Shown: piece by piece, positions 5,335-52,606 of the stretch
How positions within the stretch are numbered: the stretch's first letter is position 1
How the letters are laid out: each line of letters starts with the position of its first letter
From: an uncultured Candidatus Saccharibacteria bacterium
Lineage (GTDB): Bacteria; Patescibacteriota; Doudnabacteria; UBA920; 2-01-FULL-46-14
DNA: 64,000 nucleotides
Assembly: GCA_964396685.1 (NCBI GenBank)
Contig: CAYNFS010000003.1
Coordinates: 110-64,109 of the forward strand
Direction: 5' to 3'
Notes under the pieces: model-generated
Database searches by the model: none
What the model was told of the DNA's origin: nothing
What the model saw: the letters and a program-made list of their open reading frames with translations, nothing else
Made by a program: the position numbers and the translations under genes

Positions 5335-5409
5335 GGGCGCATAGCTCAGCGGCAGAGCATCCGTCTTATACACGGCAGGTCCTAGGTTCGAATCCTAGTG
5401 CGCCCACCA
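5335..5409 (+). tRNA. tRNA, anticodon loop CTTATAC giving anticodon UAU (putative tRNA-Ile reading AUA), with encoded CCA
   Basis: Cloverleaf folded by hand. Acceptor GGGCGCA/TGCGCCC, D-stem GCTC/GAGC, anticodon stem TCCGT/ACGGC with one 27-43 mismatch, T-stem CTAGG/CCTAG, T-loop TTCGAAT, discriminator A, 3' CCA. Confidence 0.75.
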
Positions 5410-14518: not shown

Positions 14519-14544
14519 GGATTCCCGCCTTCGCGGGAATGACA
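14519..14544. repeat. hairpin repeat GGATTCCCGCCTTCGCGGGAATGACA (GGAATGAC palindromic repeat family)
   Basis: Inverted repeat TCATTCCCGCG/CGCGGGAATGA. Related copies at 17808, 19081, 31442, 48199 and 52579. A second hairpin CCGCCCCT...AGGGGCGG follows at 14561-14582. Confidence 0.7.
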
Positions 14545-19063: not shown

Positions 19064-19120
19064 TCAAAAATTATTAACTAGATTCCGTATCAGGTAAGTA
19101 CGGAATGACAACAATGATAA

Positions 19121-30131: not shown

Positions 30132-30788
30132 ATGCTTAATCTGGCTTTGCCTGACGGCAATCTCGAGAGGAATACTTTGCGGCTTTTGGAGGCCGCGGGT
30201 TTTAGGGTGGAGTTTATGGGGCGAAAATACACGGGCCGGATTCAAGATCCCTGCTTTGCCCACGTGGCGCTGATGCGGCCGCAGATTATGCCGGGACTCA
30301 TAGGAGGAGGAAACTATGATATTGGGATCTGCGGTTCGGACTGGGTTGAAGAAAGCATTACAAAGGCGCGGGTGATTGCGCGGTTCAACTATAATAGCAG
30401 GCAGTTCGGGAACGGGTGGCGGATAGTTTTAGTGGCTGGCGGAACTGATGTGGTCTCGAAGGGTGGGGAAATACCCGACGAGGCTGAGATTTTGAGCGAA
30501 TATCGGTGGATAACCGAGGATTACTTCAACAAAATCCACAAATTCGTGGATGTTAAAGAATCTTTGGGTAAAACCGAAGCGCACATTCCGCATGATTTCC
30601 GGTTTGGAGTCTGTGTTTCTGTAACTGGCGAGACACTCCGGGCCAATAATCTCAAGATCGTGGAAGTTTTGCGAAATGCCAACCCCTTATTGATTGCCTC
30701 GCCTCAAGCGATGCAAGACAAAAAGAAGAACGCCATGCTTGAAAGCGTCGCCGTGGCTCTCACTGAAGCACTCGCTTCTTTGCGCTGA
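30132..30788 (+). CDS. hisG: ATP phosphoribosyltransferase, short form
   Basis: MLNLALPDGNLERNTLRLLEAAGF and YDIGICGSDWVEE match the HisG N-terminal and substrate-binding motifs. 218 aa, which fits the short form. The track ORF at 29631 extends spuriously into ruvB. Confidence 0.7.
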   Translation: MLNLALPDGNLERNTLRLLEAAGFRVEFMGRKYTGRIQDPCFAHVALMRPQIMPGLIGGGNYDIGICGSDWVEESITKARVIARFNYNSRQFGNGWRIVLVAGGTDVVSKGGEIPDEAEILSEYRWITEDYFNKIHKFVDVKESLGKTEAHIPHDFRFGVCVSVTGETLRANNLKIVEVLRNANPLLIASPQAMQDKKKNAMLESVAVALTEALASLR

Positions 30789-30806
30789 CAGACCGCAAAT
30801 AGTCTG
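30781..30806. repeat. 26-nt hairpin motif GCGCTGACAGACCGCAAATAGTCTGT, copy 1, overlapping the hisG stop
   Basis: ACAGAC/GTCTGT inverted repeat. Identical or near-identical copies at 31274-31298 and 33027-33052, and a degenerate copy at 33487-33507. Confidence 0.75.
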
Positions 30807-30813
30807 TTTGTTT

Positions 30814-31002
30814 TTATTTCGGTTCTTCAATGCCCAAATCCCGACAAATTTTTCTGGCAAGAAAATCATTAATTTCTTTGTGCCGGGGGACCGTCGAAGT
30901 GCGTTTTAGTACGGGATTGAAAAAGACAGAATGCCTTGCGCCCTCTCTAATAAAAACACACCCTCTTTTCCGAAGGTGGCGGATTAGGCCGCTGTGTTTC
31001 AT
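30814..31002 (-). CDS. hicA: HicA-family toxin (YcfA-like mRNA interferase)
   Basis: 62 aa, MKHSGLIRHLRKRGCVFIREGARHSVFFNP...VPRHKEI fits the HicA fold pattern (KxxEliklL...G...GSH). Confidence 0.7.
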   Translation of the reverse strand: MKHSGLIRHLRKRGCVFIREGARHSVFFNPVLKRTSTVPRHKEINDFLARKICRDLGIEEPK

Positions 31003-31441: not shown

Positions 31442-31511
31442 GTCATTCCGGGCTTGATCCGGAATCCAGATTTTGGCTTATTTACTGGATTCCCGCTTTC
31501 GCGGGAATGAC
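31442..31511. repeat. two hairpin repeats (GTCATTCCGGGCTTGATCCGGAATC ... CTGGATTCCCGCTTTCGCGGGAATGAC)
   Basis: Same GGAATGAC palindromic family as 14519 and 17808. Confidence 0.7.
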
Positions 31512-31581: not shown

Positions 31582-32334
31582 TTATTTCACCGCAGATTGT
31601 TTCCACATAACCCAAAACCACTTCCGGTAACTCTCCGCCAAGTTCTTGCTATGGAGCACAAAAAAGACGATATTTTCATGAATTTTGAACAGCTCTAATC
31701 CCGTATAGGTCACAACATAATCTCCGAAAACGTGGATGATTGAGTTTGTGGAATATTCTTTTGGCAGGAAGCGATATTTCAGATTTCCCGGCCAGGTTTT
31801 TGCAAAGTCCGGGGCTTGAACTGCAATTTCATGATCAAATAGCTGGTGGAATTTTATTTTTTTACGGTTAGCGTCCTTAAAGAACGCTTCCCTGCTTGTT
31901 GCGAGTTTAGGTTCAAACCAACCGCCTTTGGCACCCACAATGTAATTCTCTTGGCCGACCCGTAAGACATCCCGCCAAATATTTTTTTGACCTTCATGGC
32001 CGCGATAGATGTAGGCTTCTTCCGGAGCAATCCGCTGGACGAATTTTTTCTTGAGTTCCGGCAACACTTTTTGCAGTTGTTGTTCTTTTTCGGCGTACAA
32101 TTCCAGAAGTTTGTCAGGGTCCGCGGCGTTATACCGATTTTCCTTGCTAGAAAAAATTTCAAAGACAAGCCCTTTGTCAATGAGCCGATGAATGGCATCA
32201 TAAGCGTTGCGTCTGTGAATTTTTGCCGCAATCGCAATGTCGCTTATGGAGGATTCCCCTTTTCCCACGAGCGACTCGTAGATCTTGGCTTCGTTGGGAC
32301 TCAAGCCCAGACTTTCAAAAATTTCTTGGTACAT
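31582..32334 (-). CDS. TrmB-family transcriptional regulator (second paralogue in the window)
   Basis: N-terminal wHTH MYQEIFESLGLSPNEAKIYESLVGKGESSISDIAIAAKIHRRNAYDAIHRLIDKGLV plus a C-terminal TrmB domain. Confidence 0.6.
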   Translation of the reverse strand: MYQEIFESLGLSPNEAKIYESLVGKGESSISDIAIAAKIHRRNAYDAIHRLIDKGLVFEIFSSKENRYNAADPDKLLELYAEKEQQLQKVLPELKKKFVQRIAPEEAYIYRGHEGQKNIWRDVLRVGQENYIVGAKGGWFEPKLATSREAFFKDANRKKIKFHQLFDHEIAVQAPDFAKTWPGNLKYRFLPKEYSTNSIIHVFGDYVVTYTGLELFKIHENIVFFVLHSKNLAESYRKWFWVMWKQSAVK

Positions 32335-32368: not shown

Positions 32369-32453
32369 ATGGTGCTATTGGCCACTCTTAATACATAATA
32401 TATGCTATCGCTTCAACAGTCAAGCACTGTTGTAAAAGGAGGAATCATTGAGT

Positions 32454-33047
32454 ATGCCTGGATTCATAGTAAAGGCGATTATTTTGCTGGCACTGCCTTA
32501 TCTATTGGACGCCCAAGACCTGCAGAACCGCTCGACTCTGCATTTAATAGCGGACATTACCGACCGGTGGTACGTGGCCCTCTGGCCGATTGCCAACATT
32601 AGAGCGCAGTCACCCAGCAACTTCAACATTTTTGCTGGCGCAGGACGCCGCGGTAAGAATTGGTATCTGGAAGCCATGGCCCAGAAGCAGTGGAACGGCA
32701 AAGGCGGGTTGTGGACGCTAGACTTCCGCTATCGCAGGCAAGTTACCGGTCGCCTTTCGGTTTATGCCGAACCAGACGTTTTCCTTAGCCGGCGCGCGTT
32801 TTACGAGTTTATAATAGTGGAGTATCGCTCATGGCGGAAATTTAACTTGGGCGGTGAAACTGAAAACGTTCACCAGCTCGGTAAAGACGTTCTGGCGGCA
32901 GGGCCGCGGATCAGCCGCCCGCTTGGCAGGCTCTGGGGAACCGACTTTGCGCTCGGATTGGCCTATAGGACAGCTTCACCGGGGCACAATGAAATCAGGA
33001 TTTACCTGAACGCCACCAAGCGTTTTGCGCTGACAGACCGCAAATAG
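32454..33047 (+). CDS. secreted hypothetical protein (signal peptide)
   Basis: MPGFIVKAIILLALPYLLDAQDL signal-peptide-like N-terminus, Trp/Arg-rich, GC-rich. Start set at the ATG after RBS AAAGGAGG (the track used TTG at 32448). Ends inside copy 3 of the 26-nt motif. Confidence 0.4.
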   Translation: MPGFIVKAIILLALPYLLDAQDLQNRSTLHLIADITDRWYVALWPIANIRAQSPSNFNIFAGAGRRGKNWYLEAMAQKQWNGKGGLWTLDFRYRRQVTGRLSVYAEPDVFLSRRAFYEFIIVEYRSWRKFNLGGETENVHQLGKDVLAAGPRISRPLGRLWGTDFALGLAYRTASPGHNEIRIYLNATKRFALTDRK

Positions 33048-33052
33048 TCTGT
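33027..33052. repeat. 26-nt hairpin motif copy 3 (GCGCTGACAGACCGCAAATAGTCTGT)
   Basis: Identical to copy 1. The stop codon of the 32454-33047 gene lies inside it, in a different frame from the hisG case. Confidence 0.75.
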
Positions 33053-33079
33053 CTATTCTGTTTTCGACTGGAGGAAGAA

Positions 33080-42197: not shown

Positions 42198-44156
42198 ATG
42201 ATTGGGACAGAAAAGCTGCAAAAGTTAGCAAAGCTTATCCGCTATTTTATTTTAACTTCAACCACTGAAGCAGGTTCGGGGCACCCGACTTCGTCGCTGT
42301 CTGCGGTTGAATTGATGGCGGCCCTGCTTTTTGGCGGGTTTTTTCGTTTTGATTTGGACAATCCAGCGCACCCAAACAATGATCGGTTGATTTTCAGCAA
42401 AGGCCACGCTTCGCCGCTTTTTTATTCTTTATGGGCCGCTGCCGGCAGGGTTTCCGAGCAAGAGCTTTTGACCTTTCGGAAATTTGGGAGCCCTTTGGAA
42501 GGGCATCCCACGCCAGCTTTTGTATACACAGAGGCCGCCACTGGCTCACTTGGCCAAGGCTTATCAATTGGCGCAGGAATGGCGCTCAACGCCAAGCTTG
42601 ATAATTTGGCTTATAGAACTTTTGTATTGTTAGGAGATAGTGAAATGGCCGAGGGTTCTGTGTGGGAGGCCGTGCAAATCGCGGCGCATTATAAACTTAA
42701 TAATTTAATCGGGATTTTGGATGTGAATCGTTTGGGGCAAAGGGGCGAGACTATGTATGGACACGACATAAAGGCCTATGAGAAAAGGATTAAGTCTTTC
42801 GGATGGGAGACGATCGTAATAGAGGACGGGCATAATTTTCGCCAAATTTTAGAGGCCTTTCAATTTCTAATTTCTAATGACGAATTTTTAAACAAATCCC
42901 AAGTCCCAAATTCCAAACCAGTTATGGTTATAGCGAAAACAATCAAGGGCAAGGGCGTATCGTTTCTTGAGAATAAAGACGGGTGGCATGGGAAAGCGTT
43001 GCCCGCCGAAGATCTACCAAAGGCGTTAGCAGAGCTGGGAGAGATTGATAAAGGCACTCGCGGGGAAGTGGGCAAACCTGAATCGGCGGGAATTTCTAAA
43101 TCCAAATTTCTAATTTCTAAACAAGCACCAAAATACCAAATACCAAATACTAAATACGATCCCGGTAAACCCGTGGCGACGAGGAGGGCTTATGGGAATG
43201 CATTGGTCAATATCGCCGAGGTTTTCCCAAATCTTGTGGTGCTGGACGGCGAGGTTTCCAATTCGACCTATGCCGAGATTTTCAAAAAAGCTTATCCCGA
43301 GCGGTTTTTTGAGATGTTTATCGCCGAGCAGAATATGGTCGGCGTGGCGCTTGGGCTTTCGCGCCGTGGGAAAATTCCTTTTGTTTCAAGCTTCGCCGCG
43401 TTTCTCACGCGGGCTTTTGATCAAATTAGGATGTCGCAATATAGTGAGGCCAACCTCCACCCTGTTAAATCCGCCGAAGGCGGGGCTGCTTTGCAGCCAT
43501 TTAACGGGGTAAAGTTCTGCGGATCTCATGCTGGCGTTTCAATCGGCGAGGACGGGGCAAGCCAAATGGGGCTTGAGGATATTGCGATGTTTCGGACTAT
43601 ATTAAGCAGTATTATTTTGTATCCTTCGGACGCTGTTTCTTGCGAGAGACTGGTGGAGGAGGCGGCAAAACACAAAGGAATGGTTTATATTAGAACAACG
43701 CGCAAAGACACCTCGATTATTTACGAACCCAGTGAAGAATTTAAGATCGGCGGCTCAAAAATACTTAGACAATCAACCCACGATCGTGGGACAGTTGTCG
43801 CGGCGGGAATTACTTTGCATGAGGCACTCGCGGCGTACGAAGAACTTAAAAAAGAAGGAATCAATATCCGGGTGGTTGATTTATATAGTGTGAAGCCCTT
43901 GGATGTTGAAACGTTGCGGAAAGCGGCGGAAGAGACAAAGGCAATTATCACCGTTGAGGATCATTATTCAGAGGGTGGCATTGGCGAGGCAGTGGATACC
44001 GTTTTGGCACAAATACTAAATACTAAATACAAAATACTAAACTTGGCTGTTCGCAAAATGCCACGCTCCGGAAAGCCCGAGGAACTTTTGAGATATGAGG
44101 AAATAGACAGAAGTGCTATTATTAAGGCAGTAAAAGATTTAATCAGTAATAAGTGA
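42198..44156 (+). CDS. tkt: transketolase carrying in-frame low-complexity insertions
   Basis: TPP-binding GSLGQGLSIGAGMALNAKL and LLGDSEMAEGSVWEA. Insertions at FQFLISNDEFLNKSQVPNSKP, GISKSKFLISKQAPKYQIPNTKY and ILNTKYKILN are encoded by tandem DNA repeats. Confidence 0.9.
   Translation: MIGTEKLQKLAKLIRYFILTSTTEAGSGHPTSSLSAVELMAALLFGGFFRFDLDNPAHPNNDRLIFSKGHASPLFYSLWAAAGRVSEQELLTFRKFGSPLEGHPTPAFVYTEAATGSLGQGLSIGAGMALNAKLDNLAYRTFVLLGDSEMAEGSVWEAVQIAAHYKLNNLIGILDVNRLGQRGETMYGHDIKAYEKRIKSFGWETIVIEDGHNFRQILEAFQFLISNDEFLNKSQVPNSKPVMVIAKTIKGKGVSFLENKDGWHGKALPAEDLPKALAELGEIDKGTRGEVGKPESAGISKSKFLISKQAPKYQIPNTKYDPGKPVATRRAYGNALVNIAEVFPNLVVLDGEVSNSTYAEIFKKAYPERFFEMFIAEQNMVGVALGLSRRGKIPFVSSFAAFLTRAFDQIRMSQYSEANLHPVKSAEGGAALQPFNGVKFCGSHAGVSIGEDGASQMGLEDIAMFRTILSSIILYPSDAVSCERLVEEAAKHKGMVYIRTTRKDTSIIYEPSEEFKIGGSKILRQSTHDRGTVVAAGITLHEALAAYEELKKEGINIRVVDLYSVKPLDVETLRKAAEETKAIITVEDHYSEGGIGEAVDTVLAQILNTKYKILNLAVRKMPRSGKPEELLRYEEIDRSAIIKAVKDLISNK
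42861..42925. repeat. tandem AATTTCT and CAAATCCCAA-type repeats inside tkt
   Basis: TTTCAATTTCTAATTTCTAATGACGAATTTTTAAACAAATCCCAAGTCCCAAATTCCAAACC. Confidence 0.6.
43091..43157. repeat. tandem repeats (AATTTCTA x3, then CAAATAC/TAAATAC heptamer x4) inside tkt, frame preserved
   Basis: AATTTCTAAATCCAAATTTCTAATTTCTAAACAAGCACCAAAATACCAAATACCAAATACTAAATACGAT. Confidence 0.7.
44011..44045. repeat. heptamer tandem repeat (C/T)AAATAC x5 inside tkt
   Basis: CAAATACTAAATACTAAATACAAAATACTAAAC. The same unit occurs at 43125-43151. Confidence 0.7.
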
Positions 44157-44590
44157 AAAAAATTTCTGAAATAAAAGTTAGTTTCAAGACGTTGCTGTTT
44201 TGGGCATTTTTGATAATCGTATCATTCCTATTATGGTTATATGTGTTAGAGCCGACTTCAATTAATATTACTATCCATGAATATAAATTTCAGGTTGCTG
44301 AAGGGGTTTATGAAGAGGATATAGCAAAATCCCTTGCGGAAGAAGTGTCAAAAATCGTAGGTAAACCCGTGATATTCCAGACGGCTGTATATGTCCCCGA
44401 GATGGTACCGCCGGATCCGGCACGGGCCATTGCTTCTTTTACCGTTTCGAATTACCCCACTGCGTTAAGGTATAAGAAGGCCATCCTATCTTCGCAAGAG
44501 ATTGACCGCCAAGCCCGAATAAAAGTCTCGATAAAGTCTCCTATTATGCATTGGTTAAGTAGAGCAAAATATTGGTTTAAGTATGGTTAA
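44153..44590 (+). CDS. membrane-anchored hypothetical protein
   Basis: 145 aa with a TM helix LLFWAFLIIVSFLLWLYVL. Start codon overlaps the tkt stop. Confidence 0.35.
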   Translation: MKKISEIKVSFKTLLFWAFLIIVSFLLWLYVLEPTSINITIHEYKFQVAEGVYEEDIAKSLAEEVSKIVGKPVIFQTAVYVPEMVPPDPARAIASFTVSNYPTALRYKKAILSSQEIDRQARIKVSIKSPIMHWLSRAKYWFKYG

Positions 44591-44601
44591 CGGCAATTGA
44601 A

Positions 44602-45555
44602 ATGGACCGAAATTTAGCTCTCGAATTTGTCCGGGTTACAGAAGCGGCCGCGATTGCGGCCGCTAAATGGGTTGGCCGGGGGGACAAGCACGCGGCCGAC
44701 CAAGCGGCGGTGGATGAGATGCGCGCGCGGTTTAACCAAATTGATTTTGCGGGAACGGTTGTGATAGGCGAGGGCAAGAAAGACGAAGCGCCTGAACTTT
44801 ATACGGGTGAAAAAGTCGGTGCGGGCAAAGCCCCGGAAATGGATTTGGCTGTGGATCCGCTGGAAGCAACAGATAGCGTAGCGCACGGCCGTCCCAATGC
44901 CATCTCGGTCATTGCGGCAGGCGCCAAGGGAAGCTTGCTTTCCGCCCCCGATACCTATATGGATAAGCTTGCAGTGGGCCCGAAGGCGAGAAATGCAATT
45001 GATTTAGATGCGCCAGTAGCAGACAATATCCAGAAGACGGCAGAGGCTCTAGGCAAAGAGGTTTCCGAGATTACAGTCATGGTTTTGGACCGGGAGAGGC
45101 ACCAGAAACTTATGAAAGAAATAAGGGCAGTAGGTGCCCGGGTTCGCACAATTACTGATGGCGACGTGGCAGGGGCGATTGCTCCCTCGTTTCCTGATTC
45201 GGGAATCGACATGCTGATGGGTATTGGCGCTTCCACCGAGGGAGTTTTGGCGGCGGTTGCTGTCAAAATTTTGGGCGGGGAACTGTTTTGTCGGTTCAAA
45301 CCAAAAAAACCGGAAGACGAAGAAGCGATTAAGGCAAGCGGAATCAAAGACATCAATCAAATTTTGTCAGCCGAGGACTTAGCCCATGGCAAAACTTTGA
45401 CCTTCACCGCCACCGGAGTAATTGACGGCCCGCTTTTGGAGGGAGTTAGATTTACCAACCGTCACATCATCACTCATTCGGTTGTTATGCGGGCTTTATC
45501 TGGTACAATTAGATACATTACTACGCATCATCATCAGACAAGTAGCAAGTTGTAA
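44602..45555 (+). CDS. glpX: fructose-1,6-bisphosphatase class II (GlpX)
   Basis: LALEFVRVTEAAAIAAAKWVGRGDKHAADQAAVDEMR and downstream metal-binding regions are characteristic of GlpX. Confidence 0.85.
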   Translation: MDRNLALEFVRVTEAAAIAAAKWVGRGDKHAADQAAVDEMRARFNQIDFAGTVVIGEGKKDEAPELYTGEKVGAGKAPEMDLAVDPLEATDSVAHGRPNAISVIAAGAKGSLLSAPDTYMDKLAVGPKARNAIDLDAPVADNIQKTAEALGKEVSEITVMVLDRERHQKLMKEIRAVGARVRTITDGDVAGAIAPSFPDSGIDMLMGIGASTEGVLAAVAVKILGGELFCRFKPKKPEDEEAIKASGIKDINQILSAEDLAHGKTLTFTATGVIDGPLLEGVRFTNRHIITHSVVMRALSGTIRYITTHHHQTSSKL

Positions 45556-45588
45556 GTAGTAAGCAATAAGTTAGGTGGGGAGAAAGTT

Positions 45589-46512
45589 ATGATTCTAAAA
45601 GAGTTAGGCTACAATAAACCGGTTTTCATTCTCGCGTTTGACCATCGCTCATCTTTCTATAAGATGTTTGGCTACAAAGAGCCTCTGACGCCAGAACAGG
45701 CGAAAGAAATCGCGGATGCCAAGTGGCTTGTGTATGAAGGATTCAAAAAAGCGGTTTCGCAAGGGGAGCCGTCAAAAGAGTTTGCCGGAGTTCTGGTGGA
45801 TGAGCAGTTCGGTGACAGGATTCACAGGGACGCGGGCCCCGCGGGTTTTATTCACCTTCTGACCACGGAAAAAAGCGGTCAGGACGAGTTTGATTTTGAG
45901 CATGGGGAGCAATTTGGCGAGCACATAGAGAAGTACAAACCCAATTTCGCCAAAGTTTTGATTCGCTATAATCCAGAAGGAGACAAAGAGCTGAACGCTC
46001 GGCAAAGAGAAAGGCTTCGGATTTTGGGCGACTGGTGTCATGAACAAGGATATAAATTTTTGATCGAACCCCTGATTCCAGCGACTCCCCGGCAGCTGGA
46101 AAGCGTTGGCGGTGACGAAAAGCGTTACGATACAGAACTTCGTTACAAACTGATGGCCCAAATGATCAAAGAGCTGCAAGAGGGCGGCGTTGAGCCGGAC
46201 GTCTGGAAGATCGAAGGGCTGGAAGACGCTAAGCAGTATGAAGCGGTTATAGCGCAAGCTCAATCAGGCGGCAGAGAAAATGTCAAAGCCGTGGTACTAG
46301 GCCGAGGGGCTGACCCGGGACAGGTTGAGCGTTGGCTTCAGGCTGGGGCAAAAGTTTCCGGGATTATCGGCTTTGCCATCGGCCGAACGATTTTCCGCGA
46401 TGCCTTGGAAGGTTTGAAGGGGGGCAAGCTTACGCGCGAGCAGGCTTCTGCCGAGATTGCCCAAAAATACCAGCATTTCTATAAAGTATTTGTGAACGCT
46501 CAAAATTCTTAA
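45589..46512 (+). CDS. putative class I aldolase-like TIM-barrel protein (DUF2090-like)
   Basis: 307 aa. A conserved-looking Lys region (VWKIEGL) and its position within the PPP/gluconeogenesis gene set. Family assignment from memory only. Confidence 0.4.
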   Translation: MILKELGYNKPVFILAFDHRSSFYKMFGYKEPLTPEQAKEIADAKWLVYEGFKKAVSQGEPSKEFAGVLVDEQFGDRIHRDAGPAGFIHLLTTEKSGQDEFDFEHGEQFGEHIEKYKPNFAKVLIRYNPEGDKELNARQRERLRILGDWCHEQGYKFLIEPLIPATPRQLESVGGDEKRYDTELRYKLMAQMIKELQEGGVEPDVWKIEGLEDAKQYEAVIAQAQSGGRENVKAVVLGRGADPGQVERWLQAGAKVSGIIGFAIGRTIFRDALEGLKGGKLTREQASAEIAQKYQHFYKVFVNAQNS

Positions 46513-46524
46513 ATTTTCAAGTAT

Positions 46525-47223
46525 ATGAGCAGAGAATCAGGAGGGGGGACGGCCGCGACACTAGCAAAGGAAGTTTCTCCCGAGCGGCTGGATCAAAAAA
46601 TTTGGGAGCAAAATCTGGAGGAGGCCTTGGCAAACGCTTCCCAGGATTTAAAAGTAGTTAAAAGGAGCGATGCAGAGGGGGCAGTTTATTTTTTGGAAAA
46701 AGCTGGGAAAGCAATAGGCAGATTGCGGCTCTCACCGTTAAAAGGCGGTTTGCTGTGGCAAGGGAAAGAGACTTATGGCGTCGTATTTGAGGTTCCTGGC
46801 AAAGAGGGATCAATGCTGCCGACTTTGAAAGAAGAAAAGCTTGAGAACCTGTCGCAATTTGTAGGAGATTGTCTGGCATTTTTAAAAGGAGTTGGAGATG
46901 AGCCAAAATTAGAAGCCAGGGAAGACAAGCATGAAGTAGCGAATTCGTACAATGATTTGTATCGTTCTTTGGATTATGATCAACAGGCGAGATTGGCAAT
47001 TATTTGGGAGGGGTTGACTGGCGAGAAAAGGAGACGGTCAGCGCATCGCAGGTCAAGGGAACGTTTAGGTGTTCAGGAAGAGCGCTATGTCGATACTGAA
47101 AAGCTTATGGCAGAATTTCGGGAAAAGCTTGGACCGGAGAATAGTAAAAGATTTGATTTATTGCTTGAGCTTTTGGAGAAAAAGAAATCTAGAGACGGCG
47201 AAGCAAAAAGAGCCGCAGCATAA
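46525..47223 (+). CDS. hypothetical protein
   Basis: 232 aa with no recognisable motif; charged C-terminus. First gene of a tight three-gene operon. Confidence 0.35.
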   Translation: MSRESGGGTAATLAKEVSPERLDQKIWEQNLEEALANASQDLKVVKRSDAEGAVYFLEKAGKAIGRLRLSPLKGGLLWQGKETYGVVFEVPGKEGSMLPTLKEEKLENLSQFVGDCLAFLKGVGDEPKLEAREDKHEVANSYNDLYRSLDYDQQARLAIIWEGLTGEKRRRSAHRRSRERLGVQEERYVDTEKLMAEFREKLGPENSKRFDLLLELLEKKKSRDGEAKRAAA

Positions 47224-47234
47224 AATATAAAATA

Positions 47235-47525
47235 ATGGAAAGGTTTTTTAGTGAAAGCCATTTCGGAGAAAGTGGTGATCCAGGAGAAGGCGAATATGCA
47301 CTAAGGAAGGAGCGGGAGTCTTTTGAGCTTCTTGCCAGAGTCAAATCAGATCTGGACACTACCCGTTTCACTTTAGAGGATATTCACGAAGTTGTTAGTA
47401 GGCGGTATTCACAGAGGCATCTTGAGACTTTGGCGAGTTTGGGGTTTATTGAATTCAATTCAGAAAATAGCGCTTTCGAGCTTACTCCCAAGGGATATGA
47501 TTGGGAATTAGCAGATGAGCAATGA
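47235..47525 (+). CDS. hypothetical small protein (possible winged-helix)
   Basis: 96 aa, TLEDIHEVVSRRYSQRHLETLASLGFIEF is wHTH-like. Its stop overlaps the methyltransferase start (ATGA). Confidence 0.3.
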   Translation: MERFFSESHFGESGDPGEGEYALRKERESFELLARVKSDLDTTRFTLEDIHEVVSRRYSQRHLETLASLGFIEFNSENSAFELTPKGYDWELADEQ

Positions 47526-48151
47526 ATCATAGCTCCGTCTATCAATATGTGCCCGTTGCTAATCATCCGTTTCTTACCAGATGGTACGATTTTGGCTGTT
47601 GGATTTTAGGTTTAGGCCCGAAGTTTAAAAAACAGGTTCTTGACGCCGTCGAAATTTGGGATGGAGCCACGATCTTGGACGTAGGATGCGGAACGGGAGT
47701 GCTTTTGGAATTAGCCAAGCGCAAGTTTCCGAACTCAAGAGTTATCGGGATTGATCCGGATAAGCCTGCTTTGGCTCTGGCGCGTTCCAGGACATCGCGG
47801 GCGGGGTTGGACGTAGAATTGCACGAAGCTTTTGCCGAATCTTTGCCTTTGGCTGATGAGGAGTCAGACTTTTGTTTCACAAGCTTGGCTTTGCATCATA
47901 TTCCTGGTAATTTGAAAAAGCAGGCGATTCAGGAAATGTACCGGGTTTTGAAAAAAGGCGGATGGGTAGTTGTCGCTGACCTTGGCCAAACTGACAGTCG
48001 GCTGATGAGATTTATTTTGAGTTTTGAACCCTATGCGCAAGGGAATCTTGCCGGACTGATTGAGAAGTATTTGCCGGAAGCCGGTTTTAAGAATTTAAAG
48101 CTTGTAGGACGTAAGTATCCCGGTATCAAGATTTTGGTTGGAGAAAAGTAA
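47522..48151 (+). CDS. class I SAM-dependent methyltransferase
   Basis: Motif I ILDVGCGTGVLLELA, post-I VIGIDPD, motif II/III region. Confidence 0.7.
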   Translation: MNHSSVYQYVPVANHPFLTRWYDFGCWILGLGPKFKKQVLDAVEIWDGATILDVGCGTGVLLELAKRKFPNSRVIGIDPDKPALALARSRTSRAGLDVELHEAFAESLPLADEESDFCFTSLALHHIPGNLKKQAIQEMYRVLKKGGWVVVADLGQTDSRLMRFILSFEPYAQGNLAGLIEKYLPEAGFKNLKLVGRKYPGIKILVGEK

Positions 48152-48198
48152 TTAAGGATTGTTATTCTTTTTAGGCGCCAGCCAATATTAACTAGTTT

Positions 48199-48244
48199 CT
48201 GGATTCCGTATCCCTCCCAAGGCGGGCAGGCAAGTACGGAATGA
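48199..48244. repeat. hairpin repeat CTGGATTCCGTA...TACGGAATGA
   Basis: GGAATGAC palindromic family; directly abuts the tal 5' duplicate. Confidence 0.6.
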
Positions 48245-48257
48245 TAGACTATCTGAT

Positions 48258-48362
48258 GAGGCCGACAAACTTGAAAACCAGAATTTTTTTGGATTCCGGC
48301 GATCCTGACGAGACCCGGGAGGCTTTGGGCTTGCTTGGATTTCTTGACGGGCAGACGACCAA
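48258..48362 (+). pseudogene. duplicated 5' fragment of the transaldolase gene (about 85% identical to 48870-48975)
   Basis: ATGAGGCCGACAAACTTGAAAACCAGAATTTTTTTGGATTCCGGCGATCCTGACGAGACCCGGGAGGCTTTGGGCTTGCTTGGATTTCTTGACGGGCAGACGACCAATC aligns with the genuine tal start. The reading frame hits a stop shortly after the duplicated part. Confidence 0.6.
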
Positions 48363-48417
48363 TCTTCTATTTTCGTTATGCTTTGCTTCAAATCTAAAAT
48401 TTTGCTAACATGTAAAT

Positions 48418-48663
48418 ATGCTAACTGAATTTGTTATTAAAAAATTAAAAATCGCCAAGTACAAGCTTCTTAAGGACAAAACTTATTTTGGTGAAATTCC
48501 TGGTCTACAAGGAGTGTGGGCAAACGCACGAAATTTGGAAGACTGCAGAAAACAGCTCCGGGAAGTGCTGGAGGAGTGGGTACTGCTTCGGATTCGGGAT
48601 CGTCAAAGCGTGCCCGGATTGTATATTCATGCCAATCGCCGCCAAATAGTGAAGCATGCCTAA
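48418..48663 (+). CDS. hicB: HicB-like antitoxin
   Basis: 81 aa, TYFGEIPGLQGVWANARNLEDCRKQLREVLEEWV fits the HicB N-domain. Overlaps hicA by 8 nt. Confidence 0.55.
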   Translation: MLTEFVIKKLKIAKYKLLKDKTYFGEIPGLQGVWANARNLEDCRKQLREVLEEWVLLRIRDRQSVPGLYIHANRRQIVKHA

Positions 48664-48868
48664 AAGTATTTCTTGGAGAAAGTTAGTGCAAAAGTTTAGG
48701 CGTTTGGGTTTTGACGGACCGTATTCTGGCGGCCGTCATTTGTTTATGATTAAGGGAACCTTAAAGCTTCACATCCCGAATCCGCATCGCGGCAATATTT
48801 CTAAACACCTCCTTGCAGAGATTTTGAGACAAGCCGGTATTCCTTCTGCGGACTGGGAACAAGCGTAA
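48656..48868 (+). CDS. hicA: HicA-family toxin
   Basis: 70 aa, WRKLVQKFRRLGFDGPYSGGRHLFMIKG...IPNPHRGNISKHLLAEILRQAGI is the HicA/YcfA pattern. Confidence 0.7.
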   Translation: MPKSISWRKLVQKFRRLGFDGPYSGGRHLFMIKGTLKLHIPNPHRGNISKHLLAEILRQAGIPSADWEQA

Positions 48869-48869
48869 T

Positions 48870-49799
48870 ATGAGACCAGCAAATCTCAAAACCAGAATTT
48901 TTCTTGATTCAGGCGATCCTGACGAGACCCGGGAGGCTTTGGGCTTGCTTGGATTTTTTGACGGGCAGACGACCAATCCGAGCTTGATTGCCAAAAATCC
49001 GGAAACGGCCGGGAAGAAATTTACTCGCGAGGAGATTTTGGATTTTTACAAAAAAGTCGTGCAAGAGATTTCGGGTTTGATTCCCGAAGGCTCGGTTTCG
49101 ATAGAGGTTTATGCGGATTTCTCGACACCCGGCCTTCCTACCCCCTCTTCATCTCCCCCATCGCATGGGGGAGAAAAAAGATTGTCCATGCTCGAACAGG
49201 CGAGGGGGATGTTTCATTGGATTCCGAATGGTCATATCAAATTTCCAACCACGACAGAAGGGCTTAAGGCGGCAGAGCAAGCGGTCAAGGAAGGCATGGG
49301 AGTCAACATGACTCTGTGTTTTTCGCAGGAACAGGCGGCCGCGGTTTATGCTGCAACCAGAGGGGCCCAGAGAGGGCAAGTTTTTGTCTCGCCATTTGTG
49401 GGGAGGCTGGATGACCGAGGCGAGCGGGGGATGGATTTGATCGCGAATATTATTAAGATGTATAAACAGGGAGACGGACATGTGGAGGTGCTCACGGCGA
49501 GTGTGAGGAACATTGAGCATGTTTTGGAAGCGCTGCGATTAGGGTCGGATATTATTACGATGCCATTGGGGGTGCTCGAAAACTCCAAATCACAAATAAC
49601 AAATCCCAAACAAATCCCAAATTTTCCGCCCAAGGCGGATCCACCCCTGGCGGACAAATTCCAAATTCAAAACTTGAAGCCAATAGATTATAAAGAGCTT
49701 GATTTAGATAAATCCTGGCAGGAGTATGATATCGGGCATGAGCTGACGGACATCGGAATGGAGAAGTTTTCCGAGGATTGGAACCGATTAATAAAGTGA
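48870..49799 (+). CDS. tal: transaldolase / fructose-6-phosphate aldolase family, with in-frame insertions
   Basis: IFLDSGDPDETREALGLLGFFDGQTTNPSLIAKN and FVSPFVGRLDD (Schiff-base Lys region). At 309 aa it is about 90 aa longer than typical short-form Tal/FSA. Insert sequences PTPSSSPPSHGGEKRLS and SKSQITNPKQIPNFPPKADPP. Confidence 0.85.
   Translation: MRPANLKTRIFLDSGDPDETREALGLLGFFDGQTTNPSLIAKNPETAGKKFTREEILDFYKKVVQEISGLIPEGSVSIEVYADFSTPGLPTPSSSPPSHGGEKRLSMLEQARGMFHWIPNGHIKFPTTTEGLKAAEQAVKEGMGVNMTLCFSQEQAAAVYAATRGAQRGQVFVSPFVGRLDDRGERGMDLIANIIKMYKQGDGHVEVLTASVRNIEHVLEALRLGSDIITMPLGVLENSKSQITNPKQIPNFPPKADPPLADKFQIQNLKPIDYKELDLDKSWQEYDIGHELTDIGMEKFSEDWNRLIK
49150..49172. repeat. palindromic element TCTCCCCCATCGCATGGGGGAGA inside tal
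   Basis: CTCCCCC/GGGGGAG inverted repeat, in frame. Sister of 18774-18798. Confidence 0.6.
49581..49668. repeat. CAAAT-rich tandem repeats and a CCGCC...GGCGG hairpin inside tal
   Basis: CACAAATAACAAATCCCAAACAAATCCCAAATTTTCCGCCCAAGGCGGATCC...CCAAATTCCAAATTCAAAAC. Same CAAATCCCAA unit as in tkt at 42892. Confidence 0.6.
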
Positions 49800-49831: not shown

Positions 49832-50188
49832 ATGCTAATAAAAACGTTTCGTGATTTGATTGCCTGGCAGAAAGCTCATAATCTTACTCTAGGAGTCTAT
49901 AAAATAACTGATAAATTTCCCAAAACCGAGACATTTGGTTTAACTAGTCAGATGCGTCGTTGCGCTGTTTCTGTGCCTTCTAATATCGCAGAGGGGTTTA
50001 AGCGAAGAACAAAAAATGATTCGGTTCATTTCTACAACATTGCCGAGGGAGCATTAGAAGAATTAAAGTATCAATTGCTGCTTGCGAGAGACCTAGGCTA
50101 TATTTCAGATAAAGAATATCGCTCGTTGAATGATTTAGCCGATGAAGTAGGCAAACTCACCAACGGTTGGAAGCGGGTACAAAAATAA
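49832..50188 (+). CDS. avd: four-helix-bundle protein of the 23S-rRNA-intervening-sequence / Avd family (DGR accessory variability determinant-like)
   Basis: 118 aa, WQKAHNLTLGVYKITDKFPKTETFGLTSQMRRCAVSVPSNIAEGFKRRT...FYNIAEGALEEL, the TIGR02436/PF05635 pattern to which DGR Avd proteins belong. Confidence 0.7.
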   Translation: MLIKTFRDLIAWQKAHNLTLGVYKITDKFPKTETFGLTSQMRRCAVSVPSNIAEGFKRRTKNDSVHFYNIAEGALEELKYQLLLARDLGYISDKEYRSLNDLADEVGKLTNGWKRVQK

Positions 50189-52160: not shown

Positions 52161-52578
52161 TTGAATGAATTAGACCAGTTTGTAAAACACCAGCTTCGAG
52201 TAAAATATTACTTTCGCCATGCTGATGATTTTGTTATAGTTCATAGTGACGACACTCATTTGCAGGGCCCAACCTGCTCAATTCAGAGGTTTTTGAAAGA
52301 CGATCTTGATCTGGGGCTGCATCCTAAAAAAATCGTCATCAGAAGACTCCACCAAGGCATAGATTTTTTGGGTTATGTTATTTTACCTCATCATATCGTA
52401 TTGAGGACGAAAACCAAAAGAAGAACATTTAGAAAACTTTTTGAAAAAAGAGGAATGCTCGAAAGGGATAAGATAAGTTTTGAGAGTTATAATCAATCAA
52501 TACAGTCTTATTTGGGCATGTTGGAGCATTCAAATGGATATAATTTGAGTAATATAATTCAGAATAATTTTTCAGGAG

Positions 52579-52606
52579 CTGGATTCCCGCTTCCACGGGA
52601 ATGACA
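52579..52606. repeat. hairpin repeat CTGGATTCCCGCTTCCACGGGAATGACA at the RT 3' end
   Basis: GGAATGAC palindromic family. Supplies the terminal codons (GFPLPRE) and the stop of the RT ORF. Confidence 0.6.

What the first reader, a model, noticed from the sequence alone, without database searches (positions are those of the whole stretch)
48199..48975. hicBA module inserted into the 5' end of transaldolase, with an approximately 105-bp duplication of the tal start
Positions 48258-48362 duplicate the first 105 nt of tal (48870-48975) at about 85% identity. The translation of the first copy reads MRPTNLKTRIFLDSGDPDETREALGLLGFLDGQTTN and then stops. The intact gene reads MRPANLKTRIFLDSGDPDETREALGLLGFFDGQTTNPSLI. 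Between the two copies lie hicB-like and hicA genes. A hairpin repeat of the GGAATGAC family directly precedes the first copy. This looks like the footprint of an insertion that carried its own copy of the target gene's start, or regenerated it by duplication. The duplicated promoter and leader may now drive the toxin-antitoxin pair.
Basis: seen in the sequence. Interest (0 to 1): 0.6.

Follow-up and report, generated by a model that had tools for sequence, protein, structure and literature searches.

The report
Toxin-antitoxin cassette with recombination scar
A small toxin-antitoxin gene pair sits just in front of a sugar-metabolism gene (transaldolase) and is preceded by a leftover second copy of that gene's first 109 bases, a footprint that recurs around related cassettes in other ultra-small bacteria and most likely marks recombination between two diverged versions of the locus.

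Summary
Positions 48256-48364 and 48870-48978 are a 109-nt direct repeat (99/109 identical) that starts exactly at the tal ATG. hicB (48418-48663) and hicA (48656-48868) lie between the copies, and a REP-like hairpin (48201-48244) precedes the first copy.

The interpretation needs revising.
- Nothing upstream of the ATG is duplicated, so no promoter or leader is copied. hicBA has its own promoter-like arm (48365-48417), conserved in relatives.
- hicBA directly upstream of tal is not specific to this genome. One related lineage has methyltransferase|hicBA|tal with no remnant. Another has aldolase, an 11-codon tal remnant, then hicB.
- The ten differences between the copies change only two residues, which suggests two diverged alleles rather than a decayed in-place duplicate.
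- Of 57 independent hicBA loci of this family, 12 have direct repeats of local sequence beside the cassette (10 close against it), against 0 of 473 controls. The repeats are gene starts or gene ends of housekeeping genes. Differences run 38 synonymous to 16 non-synonymous codons.

Best reading: a recombination scar of the kind called 'insertion with long target duplication', so far described for restriction-modification units. This is a new member of a known kind and moderately interesting.

The parts
47522..48151 (+). SAM-dependent methyltransferase gene, the upstream neighbour. In relatives L013-L017 its orthologue's stop codon is followed directly by the hicB promoter arm.
   Evidence: Pfam Methyltransf_25/11. 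Orthologue and C-terminal alignment in L014.
48152..48255 (+). Native-looking intergenic region in front of the remnant tal start. It has no counterpart in front of the intact tal or in L013-L017.
48201..48244 (+). REP-like hairpin of the GGATTCC...GGAATGA(C) family (9-bp stem ATTCCGTAT/GTACGGAAT). It is part of the intergenic region, not of the duplication.
   Evidence: Paralogue with the same stem and the same ATTAACTAG prefix at 19073-19109.
48256..48364 (+). Remnant copy of tal codons 1-36 plus one base (copy A). All family-consensus residues are kept, including L30. The open frame 48241/48256-48408 reads on into the hicB promoter arm.
48365..48417 (+). Left arm of the hicBA unit. It is 24.5% G+C and promoter-like: -35 TTGCTT at 48383-48388, a 17-nt spacer, TG at 48403-48404, -10 TAACAT at 48406-48411, then 6 nt to the hicB ATG.
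   Evidence: Read from the sequence. Conserved in L012 and L013-L017, with the same layout in more distant loci. Not reported by the consensus scan. G+C.
48418..48663 (+). hicB-like antitoxin gene. It encodes 81 aa, a single UPF0150 domain with no DNA-binding domain.
   Evidence: PF21748, 87.2 bits. Closest solved chain is TTHA0281, 2dsy. 184 relatives found, mostly Patescibacteria where named.
48656..48868 (+). hicA toxin gene, 70 aa. Its start overlaps the hicB stop by 8 nt (ATGCCTAA).
   Evidence: PF07927, 36.8 bits. 1421 relatives, many 75-84% identical. Overlap shown.
48870..48978 (+). Copy B of the repeat, the first 109 nt of the intact tal. It starts one base after the hicA stop (TAA T ATG).
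48870..49799 (+). Intact transaldolase gene, 309 aa.
   Evidence: PF00923, 149.8 bits. 7963 homologues. Alignment.

Best explanation
The locus is a recombination scar around a compact, self-promoted hicBA toxin-antitoxin unit of 505 nt. The unit comprises a 53-nt promoter arm, hicB, hicA and one base.

In one haplotype of this Doudnabacteria clade the unit sits directly between the methyltransferase stop codon and the tal start codon. In another haplotype tal follows an ordinary intergenic region with a REP-like hairpin. The window carries both tal starts in tandem. Copy A keeps the native intergenic region. Copy B is the start of the working gene and abuts hicA.

The most likely origin is recombination between these two diverged haplotypes after DNA transfer between relatives. 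One side was resolved through homology in tal. The other side was joined illegitimately, or a circularised fragment integrated by a single crossover. The result is what has been called 'insertion with long target duplication'.

Shown:
- the repeat and its exact limits;
- the gene identities;
- hicBA-tal linkage in relatives, with 0, 33 or 109 nt of tal remnant;
- the same footprint around many other hicBA units;
- the synonymous bias of the differences between copies.

Inferred:
- that the two copies are donor and resident alleles;
- the recombination route and its direction. Either the cassette came in, or a cassette-free allele came in and only recombinants that kept the addictive pair survived.
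- that tal is now co-transcribed and translationally coupled with hicA;
- that HicA toxicity selects against loss of the unit by recombination between the two copies.
For: 1. The repeat is 109 nt and 99/109 identical. It starts at the ATG, and its flanks are unrelated.
2. Eight codons differ and only two change the residue. P(<=2 residue changes for 10 random substitutions) is 0.0003-0.0013. Copy A keeps every consensus residue of the family, including L30, where the working copy has F.
3. Relatives L013-L017 (HicB 81% aa) have methyltransferase stop, a 51-nt arm, hicB, hicA, 4 nt, then tal, with no remnant.
4. Relative L012 (HicB 84% aa) has class I aldolase, tal codons 1-11 (MRPKNLKTRIF), the arm, then hicB. 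Other Doudnabacteria have an aldolase gene followed directly by tal, or with one gene between, and no hicBA.
5. Of 57 independent hicBA loci of this family, 12 have direct repeats in the flanks, 10 of them lying close against the unit. Mock cassettes in the same loci gave 0/320, and the window gave 0/153.
6. The repeats are unrelated between loci. They are 5' ends of the downstream gene, starting at or within a few bases of its ATG, or 3' ends of the upstream gene. The genes involved are rluA-like, a methyltransferase, transketolase, pth and fusA.
7. Differences between copies are 38 synonymous to 16 non-synonymous codons in the true frame. In the off frames they are almost all non-synonymous. 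P is about 1e-6 against the 38% expected for in-place duplication plus neutral decay of one copy.
8. There are no conserved ends, inverted terminal repeats or recombinase genes.
9. Literature. Restriction-modification units show the same footprint, with repeats often spanning start or stop codons, mostly in naturally competent species (PMC2853133, PMC3874152). Single crossover of a circular molecule gave 109-950 bp duplications in E. coli (PMC3240628). Patescibacteria keep recombination and competence genes (PMC12455944).
Against: No closely related genome with an empty site or a clean site was found. The nearest tal is 72% identical by BLASTP, so donor and resident alleles are inferred and not observed.

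The differences are not spread evenly: 9 lie in the first 42 nt and 1 in the remaining 67 nt (Fisher P = 0.0007). A simple single crossover predicts even divergence. The pattern needs later gene conversion, mosaic parental alleles, or a join to the displaced resident strand.

True homology-facilitated illegitimate recombination usually gives deletions, not duplications (PMC3240628).

The left end of the unit coincides within about 2 nt with the methyltransferase-stop/arm boundary of L014. I explain this by selection, not by the mechanism.

This is a metagenome-assembled contig and no reads were available. The synonymous-bias test on the window alone rejects pure neutral decay but not a mixed model. 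The strong statistic is pooled over loci.
Confidence: 0.6

Rival explanations
1. There was one old insertion in the common ancestor of the tal-linked lineages. The remnant tal start was then kept similar to the working copy by gene conversion. It was trimmed to 33 nt in the L012 lineage and deleted in the L013-L017 lineage.
For: The hicBA-tal linkage and the promoter arm are shared by three lineages whose HicB proteins group together (84% and 81% identity, against 72% or less for all others). The 67-nt tract is 98.5% identical next to a 42-nt tract at 79%, which looks like a conversion tract. L079 and L105 share an orthologous rluA site with remnants of different length, so remnants can persist through divergence.
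Against: Copy A keeps all consensus residues and an open frame, although it would have been a dead fragment since before lineages diverged to 67-79% identity in this region. Conversion does not produce a synonymous bias in the changes of the dead copy. The full 104-nt intergenic region and the remnant would have had to survive in a streamlined genome. The upstream genes differ (aldolase in L012, methyltransferase here), which needs further events.
Confidence: 0.2
2. This is a true target-site duplication made at the moment of insertion, by a staggered break about 109 nt apart that was filled in. The two copies diverged afterwards.
For: It gives the same footprint as the long, variable target duplications reported for restriction-modification units, where DNA breakage was proposed as the cause (PMC2853133). 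The unit has rather constant limits, with a left arm mostly 42-66 nt and a right arm 1-39 nt.
Against: Differences between copies are strongly synonymous (38 to 16, P about 1e-6 against this model). In five loci the repeat begins at the start codon or 1-2 nt before it (6 nt before in L079), which a random staggered cut does not predict. HicA is an RNase-type toxin with no known DNA-cutting activity (family knowledge).
Confidence: 0.1
3. This is an assembly artefact. Two strain variants of the tal start were stitched in tandem by the metagenome assembler.
For: The contig comes from a metagenome-assembled genome, and the two copies differ like strain variants.
Against: The junction tal-nt109/arm and the junction hicA-stop/ATG each need real reads, because there is no shared sequence at those joins to mislead an assembler. 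The same architecture recurs in many independent assemblies from other projects and assemblers. L012 independently shows a tal remnant in front of hicB. Cluster records list the same tal and hicB proteins on two contigs each. A 60-aa HicA, identical to this one from residue 11 apart from its start codon, lies on a 65,898-bp NCBI contig. That DNA could not be fetched.
Confidence: 0.05
4. This is the remnant of a site-specific integrative element, an integron cassette or a transposon that targets the 5' end of tal and carries a replacement start, as SXT does in prfC.
For: Elements that integrate into a gene's 5' end and supply a new start are known (own knowledge). The unit is compact and found in many contexts.
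Against: No integrase or transposase lies in or next to the unit. There are no inverted terminal repeats. Only one base lies between the hicA stop and the tal ATG, so there is no room for an attC-like site. The flanking repeats are unrelated between loci and vary from 20 to 109 nt, so there is no common core site.
Confidence: 0.03

Closest known systems
Insertion with long target duplication, described for restriction-modification gene units (Nobusato et al. 2000, Gene 259:99; Furuta, Abe and Kobayashi 2010, PMC2853133; reviewed in PMC3874152)
   Same: A small addiction-type gene unit with no recombinase is flanked by long direct repeats of variable length (tens to hundreds of bp). The repeats are unique local sequence and often span a translation start or stop, so the neighbouring gene stays intact. 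The footprint is seen mostly in bacteria able to take up DNA.
   Different: The cargo here is a hicBA toxin-antitoxin pair whose toxin family cuts RNA, not DNA. The DNA-breakage idea proposed for restriction enzymes therefore cannot explain it. The hosts are Patescibacteria (CPR). The two repeat copies differ mainly at synonymous sites, which points to juxtaposed alleles rather than a duplicated target. No near-identical empty site is available here.
Single-crossover (Campbell-type) integration of a circular molecule that carries part of a chromosomal gene, and homology-facilitated illegitimate recombination
   Same: One homologous anchor in a conserved gene is combined with a non-homologous rest. 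Single crossover yields a partial duplication of the anchor, 109-950 bp in E. coli (PMC3240628). The outcome is an intact gene plus a truncated copy.
   Different: Those are laboratory events with engineered plasmids. Classical homology-facilitated illegitimate recombination mostly deletes resident DNA rather than duplicating it. Some repeats here are only 20-45 nt, which is short for RecA-dependent crossover.
Type II toxin-antitoxin system HicAB
   Same: A HicA-domain toxin and a HicB/UPF0150-fold antitoxin are encoded by overlapping genes in one operon.
   Different: The gene order is antitoxin first. The antitoxin is a single 81-aa domain without the usual DNA-binding domain. A housekeeping gene (tal) is fused to the operon one base after the hicA stop.
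Displacement of toxin/immunity modules that leaves orphan fragments (Vibrio cholerae T6SS effector-immunity arrays; Rhs/CDI orphan ends)
   Same: Incoming modules are anchored by a conserved flank and joined illegitimately at the other end. Pieces of the resident allele are left in tandem, and the alleles in one genome derive from different strains (PMC5361080).
   Different: There the remnants are whole immunity genes or toxin 3' ends and have a function. Here the remnant is a short dead 5' piece of a metabolic gene.

Membership tests
Type II toxin-antitoxin HicAB | Toxin with a HicA domain | tested here: met
   PF07927, 36.8 bits against a cut-off of 27, covering residues 7-62. The G-x-R-H-L motif with the conserved histidine is visible in the sequence (the role of this residue rests on family knowledge).
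Type II toxin-antitoxin HicAB | Antitoxin with a HicB / UPF0150 fold | tested here: met
   PF21748, 87.2 bits. Sequence match to TTHA0281, PDB 2dsy, E = 1e-11.
Type II toxin-antitoxin HicAB | Two adjacent co-oriented genes forming one operon | tested here: met
   hicA ATG at 48656 overlaps the hicB stop at 48661-48663 (ATGCCTAA). The same layout is seen in 90 of 98 related loci.
Type II toxin-antitoxin HicAB | Canonical layout: toxin gene first, and an antitoxin with a C-terminal DNA-binding domain | tested here: not met
   The antitoxin gene comes first. HicB is 81 aa with a single domain covering residues 5-66.
Type II toxin-antitoxin HicAB | Toxin arrests growth and the antitoxin neutralises it | not testable with these tools
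   Needs expression experiments.
Insertion with long target duplication (Nobusato 2000; Furuta 2010) | Inserted unit flanked by direct repeats longer than 30 bp | tested here: met
   109 nt, 99/109 identical.
Insertion with long target duplication (Nobusato 2000; Furuta 2010) | Repeat is local unique sequence, not a dispersed repeat or a recombinase core site | tested here: met
   Only two copies in the 64-kb window. It is the tal coding start. Repeats at other hicBA loci are unrelated in sequence. The rest of the genome was not searched.
Insertion with long target duplication (Nobusato 2000; Furuta 2010) | No transposase, integrase or other mobile-element gene in or beside the insert | tested here: met
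   The unit holds only hicB and hicA. Its neighbours are a methyltransferase, tal and a 23S-IVP-like gene.
Insertion with long target duplication (Nobusato 2000; Furuta 2010) | A related genome shows the empty site with the repeat sequence present once | tested here: inconclusive
   Doudnabacteria loci L009-L011 and L026-L028 have a single tal start and no hicBA, but their tal proteins are only 61-72% identical by BLASTP. No near-identical genome was found.
Insertion with long target duplication (Nobusato 2000; Furuta 2010) | Cargo is a restriction-modification unit | tested here: not met
   The cargo is hicBA. This is why I call it a new member and not an already known case.
Site-specific integrative element that replaces a gene's 5' end | Linked tyrosine or serine recombinase and a conserved core site shared by family members | tested here: not met
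   No recombinase near the unit. The flanking repeats of 12 loci share no core.
Insertion sequence / MITE | Terminal inverted repeats and a short target duplication of fixed length | tested here: not met
   No inverted repeats at the unit's ends. Duplications vary from 20 to 109 nt.
Integron gene cassette | attC recombination site at the 3' end of the cassette | tested here: not met
   One base separates the hicA stop from the tal ATG. Right arms at other loci are 1-39 nt and unrelated.

The most novel reading that the evidence does not exclude
The hicBA units of Patescibacteria may be recombinase-free selfish cassettes with a life cycle of their own. They sit tightly against conserved housekeeping genes and use those genes as homology anchors to enter related genomes after DNA uptake. 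The resulting direct repeats allow excision as circles and re-entry. The toxin kills cells that lose the unit or that try to replace it with a cassette-free allele. The scars would then be frequent, datable records of gene flow in uncultured ultra-small bacteria. The 'long target duplication' footprint known from restriction-modification units would be a general property of addiction modules and not a product of DNA cutting.
Probability: 0.25. Interest if true: 0.7.

Novelty: new member of a known kind. Interest (0 to 1): 0.5.

Why it matters
For this genome, the finding explains an odd partial duplicate. It also shows that transaldolase, a central pentose-phosphate gene, is now wired one base behind a toxin gene. 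This probably makes it part of the hicBA operon and makes the cassette hard to lose.

More generally, about one in five cassettes of this very widespread CPR hicBA family carries the same footprint next to housekeeping genes such as fusA, pth, tkt, rluA and tal.

The footprint was known for restriction-modification units and was attributed to their DNA cutting. Seeing it with an RNase-type toxin argues that the cause lies in host recombination plus post-segregational killing.

The synonymous pattern of differences gives a simple sequence test that separates 'two alleles joined' from 'target duplicated'. It could be applied to the restriction-modification cases too.

The scars are also direct evidence for recombination-mediated gene exchange between diverged Patescibacteria, which cannot yet be studied in culture.

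Tried and rejected
**Searches that led nowhere**
- Scan of species-representative genomes with Tal. It found only distant tal genes (31-63% identity in the best segment), no hicBA-tal locus and not the source genome.
- Degenerate DNA pattern spanning the conserved hicA motif and the tal start. It matches the window but had 0 hits in the metagenome collection.
- The 80 metagenome loci with HicB relatives. None has tal beside hicBA.
- Look-up of the 60-aa HicA from a second NCBI contig (65,898 bp), tried as an independent assembly. It is not on record. The cluster mate P0361/L029 turned out to be a different context, beside a diversity-generating retroelement and a signal peptidase.
- Rfam over the whole window. 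Only a tRNA was found, and nothing at the hairpin or the arm.
- Terminator scan at 47900-49100. None was found, so the hairpin is not a classical intrinsic terminator.
- The consensus promoter scan did not list my proposed hicB promoter, because its -35 box has only 3 of 6 matches. That promoter rests on conservation and not on the scan.
- G+C of the unit is 42% against 47.4% for the window, the 10th percentile. This is not decisive for a foreign origin.
- PubMed Central copies of the two founding papers on homology-facilitated illegitimate recombination are not held.

**Ideas rejected**
- Promoter or leader duplication. There is no similarity upstream of the ATG.
- Transposon, integron or integrase element. 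There are no ends, core site or enzyme.
- An attempt to tell which copy is older from outgroups. The first 42 nt are too saturated.

**Ideas left open**
- Simple single crossover as the whole story. It conflicts with the uneven spread of differences.
- The direction of the event.
Full report
**What is in the sequence**

The window is contig JACQJJ010000008.1 of a Candidatus Doudnabacteria (CPR/Patescibacteria) metagenome-assembled genome, GCA_016205105.1.

Positions 48256-48364 and 48870-48978 form a gap-free direct repeat of 109 nt with 99 identical bases. It is the only repeat of this size within 3 kb in the whole window.

The repeat starts exactly at an ATG in both copies and ends after the first base of codon 37. 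Sequence on either side is unrelated.

The second copy is the start of an intact 309-aa transaldolase gene (48870-49799, PF00923).

Between the copies lie a hicB-like antitoxin gene (48418-48663, PF21748) and a hicA toxin gene (48656-48868, PF07927). The two genes overlap by 8 nt. The hicA stop is one base from the tal ATG (TAA T ATG).

Upstream of the first copy there is a 104-nt spacer with a hairpin at 48201-48244. The hairpin belongs to a GGATTCC...GGAATGA(C) family with several other intergenic copies in the window. The closest, at 19073-19109, shares the stem and an ATTAACTAG prefix.

One detail of the finding is wrong. The frame of the first copy does not stop after GQTTN but runs 14 more codons, to the TAA at 48406-48408.

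**The two copies look like two alleles**

The ten mismatches fall in eight codons, and only two of them change the residue (T4A, L30F). With ten random substitutions this happens in 0.03-0.13% of simulations.

The dead copy keeps every residue that is conserved in the family, including L30. All 44 homologues inspected have L at this position, while the working copy has F.

The mismatches are also clustered, with nine in the first 42 nt and one in the remaining 67 nt (Fisher P = 0.0007).

**No promoter is duplicated, and hicBA has its own**

Similarity begins at the ATG, so the tal promoter and leader are not part of the repeat.

The 53 nt between copy A and hicB (48365-48417, 24.5% G+C) read TTGCTT, 17 nt, TGcTAACAT, 6 nt, ATG.

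The same arm, with the same spacing, precedes hicB in relatives L012 and L013-L017. More distant hicBA loci have a comparable -35/-10 pair at the same distance. The generic promoter scan did not list this site, so the call rests on conservation.

**Relatives change the story**

No close relative of this genome exists in the collections. The nearest Tal is 72% identical. Other Doudnabacteria have an aldolase gene followed directly by tal, or with one gene between, and no hicBA.

The two closest HicB proteins are informative.
- Groundwater contigs L013-L017 (HicB 81% aa, hicB 75% nt) carry an orthologous methyltransferase. Its stop codon is followed by a 51-nt arm, hicB, hicA, 4 nt and tal, with no remnant.
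- Contig L012 (HicB 84%) carries a class I aldolase gene, then tal codons 1-11 (ATGCGGCCGAAAAATCTTAAAACGCGAATTTTT, MRPKNLKTRIF), then the arm and hicB. The contig ends inside hicA.

So hicA abutting the tal start is older than this genome. Related lineages carry 0, 33 or 109 nt of tal remnant, behind different upstream genes.

Over the repeat, copy A and copy B are far closer to each other (91% overall, 79% in the first 42 nt, 98.5% in the rest) than any pair of lineages is (62-82%).

**The footprint is recurrent**

A scan of metagenome contigs with an alignment of HicB relatives returned 80 further loci. None is linked to tal.

I compared the 200-500 nt upstream of hicB with the sequence downstream of hicA. 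Direct repeats lying against the unit turned up in many loci.

After collapsing near-identical loci, 12 of 57 independent loci with at least 120 nt on both flanks have such a repeat. Ten of these lie close against the unit. The other two are palindromic dispersed repeats (L029) or lie further away (L080). Mock cassettes of the same size gave 0 of 320 in the same loci and 0 of 153 across the window.

The units are compact, 470-590 nt. The left arm is 34-107 nt and mostly 42-66 nt. The right arm is 1-39 nt, except in L104, where hicA has decayed.

The repeats are unrelated between loci, so they are local target sequence.
- 5' ends of the downstream gene. Five start at its ATG or 1-2 nt before it (tal here, 109 nt; L035, 44 nt; L053, 42 nt; L105, 43 nt; L104, where similarity extends 11 nt further upstream, 82 nt). 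In L079 (33 nt) the repeat starts 6 nt before the ATG.
- 3' ends of the upstream gene (L050, 45 nt; L065, 23 nt; L097, 81 nt; L089, 64 nt).
- Intergenic sequence.

The genes involved are housekeeping genes: an rluA-like pseudouridine synthase, a methyltransferase, transketolase, peptidyl-tRNA hydrolase and EF-G.

In the true reading frames the copies differ at 38 synonymous and 16 non-synonymous codons. In the two wrong frames the differences are almost all non-synonymous.

Suppose the repeat were made in place, one copy then drifted neutrally and the other stayed under purifying selection. I estimate that about 38% of differing codons would then be synonymous. The observed 70% has P of about 1e-6. 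The copies therefore diverged while both were parts of working genes, that is, in different genomes.

**Mechanism**

The simplest account is recombination between two diverged haplotypes of the same neighbourhood. One has the hicBA unit packed between two genes, as in L013-L017. The other lacks it.

If incoming DNA has homology on both sides, the exchange is clean and leaves no trace. If homology is available on one side only, the other end must be joined illegitimately, or a circularised fragment integrates by a single crossover. Both alleles of the anchor's end then remain in tandem.

This explains three features.
- The repeat starts at the start codon. In clean carriers nothing but the cassette lies before the ATG.
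- The arms are never much longer than the promoter. A longer arm would carry homology and give a clean exchange. A shorter one would lose the antitoxin promoter.
- The repeat length varies.

Single crossover of circular molecules that had lost part of the homology produced 109-950 bp duplications in E. coli, whereas classical homology-facilitated illegitimate recombination mostly deletes (PMC3240628). Patescibacteria retain homologous-recombination genes and comEC/pilus uptake systems (PMC12455944).

Several points remain unresolved.
- The direction of the event is open. Either the cassette came in, or a cassette-free allele came in and only recombinants that kept the toxin-antitoxin pair survived.
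- The exact route is open.
- The uneven spread of mismatches in the window is unexplained. It needs later gene conversion, mosaic parents, or a join to the displaced resident strand.

An old single insertion kept similar by gene conversion remains the main rival, at about 0.2.

**Function now**

This section is inferred. HicA-family toxins are RNases that are neutralised by HicB (family knowledge). The pair is transcribed from its own arm. tal follows one base after the hicA stop and is probably co-transcribed and translationally coupled with it, as in L013-L017. Transcripts from the native tal promoter region would read through the remnant into the unit.

Recombination between the two 109-nt copies would delete hicBA and restore a chimeric tal. 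Post-segregational killing by HicA would select against that deletion.

**Comparison with what is known**

The footprint matches 'insertion with long target duplication', described for restriction-modification units. In those cases there is no mobility gene, and the repeats are long, variable and unique. They often span a start or stop codon so that the neighbouring gene survives. The cases occur mostly in naturally competent species, and DNA breakage by the restriction enzyme was proposed as the cause (PMC2853133; PMC3874152).

A full-text search for the phrase found 32 papers. None of the 25 listed titles concerns a toxin-antitoxin cassette. The one toxin-antitoxin review among them holds the phrase only in its reference list.

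This case therefore adds a new kind of cargo (an RNase-type toxin-antitoxin pair), a new host group, and evidence that the 'duplication' is two alleles. It also weakens the DNA-breakage explanation.

It is not a transposon, integron cassette or integrase island.

**Verdict**

It is wrong about promoter duplication and about a fresh insertion into tal. Novelty: a new member of a known kind. Interest: 0.5.

**Limits**
- No reads were available.
- No near-identical comparator genome was found.
- The strongest statistic is pooled over loci.
- My expectation of 38% synonymous differences depends on assumed rates: about 25% of random changes being synonymous, and a non-synonymous to synonymous rate ratio of about 0.1 in the live copy.

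Noticed in passing
window 14521-14543, 17808-17830, 17841-17867, 19081-19109, 31442-31465, 31487-31511, 48201-48244, 52578-52605: A family of short G+C-rich hairpins with the frame (CT)GGATTCC-stem-loop-stem-GGAATGAC lies mostly at gene ends or in spacers, sometimes in back-to-back pairs. GGAATGAC occurs 9 times against 1.9 expected. They look like REP-type elements, and Rfam has no match.
   Followed up: partly
window 30779-30821 and 33024-33066: A second long direct repeat (43 nt, 88% identical) brackets a 2.2-kb segment. The segment holds a TrmB-like regulator gene on the minus strand (31582-32334), an unassigned 199-aa ORF (32448-33047) and a hairpin pair. It may be another insertion with long target duplication.
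   Followed up: partly
window 49131-49190 and about 49575-49665 (inside tal): The transaldolase carries in-frame extra segments relative to most homologues. One (residues about 88-106) contains the palindrome TCTCCCCCATCGCATGGGGGAGA and is partly shared with L013 and P0003. The other lies in a region that varies across the family and contains CCGCCCAAGGCGG. They look like hairpin-type insertions tolerated inside a coding region.
   Followed up: partly
window 5335-5409: A tRNA-Ile gene with the anticodon TAT (UAU), which is uncommon in bacteria. It is the only tRNA in the window.
   Followed up: no
L029 2888-2910 and 3467-3530; L096 109-134, 822-847 and further copies: In these two hicBA loci the cassette is bracketed by copies of short palindromic dispersed repeats (CTATTGAAGTTGAACTTCAATAG, and AATTGATGGAGGTTGAACCTCCATCA) rather than by duplicated gene ends. 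The repeats match on both strands.
   Followed up: partly
L104 2501-3040: This is a decaying unit. hicB is intact, but only the last third of hicA remains (...ISKHLLSEILRQAGISAKEWN). The flanking 82-nt repeat (transketolase start) is down to 79% identity. It shows what an old scar looks like.
   Followed up: partly
L079 921-953/1472-1504 and L105 2401-2443/2944-2986: Two diverged lineages share the same insertion site in front of an rluA-like gene, with homologous promoter arms but remnants of different length (33 and 43 nt). This parallels the 109/33/0-nt series at tal.
   Followed up: partly
window 49832-50188; L009 1047-1403; L018-L021 1-656: Small 23S-rRNA-intervening-sequence-protein / bAvd-like genes recur next to these loci. 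One lies directly after tal here, one before glpX in L009, and two lie in tandem near a Liptonbacteria hicBA. They may be another class of small mobile genes in these genomes.
   Followed up: no
second NCBI contig of 65,898 bp (not retrievable): Cluster records list the identical Tal and HicB on two contigs each. A 60-aa HicA, called from the internal GTG and otherwise identical to this one from residue 11, lies on a 65,898-bp NCBI contig. This would be an independent assembly of the locus, but its DNA could not be fetched.
   Followed up: partly
window 42198-49799: The tal scar lies in a sugar-phosphate gene cluster: transketolase, a 145-aa ORF, glpX-type FBPase, a DUF2090 aldolase-like gene, two unassigned ORFs, the methyltransferase, then tal. 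A PGI-like gene lies further on. Relatives carry a class I or class II aldolase where this genome has DUF2090 plus three extra genes.
   Followed up: partly
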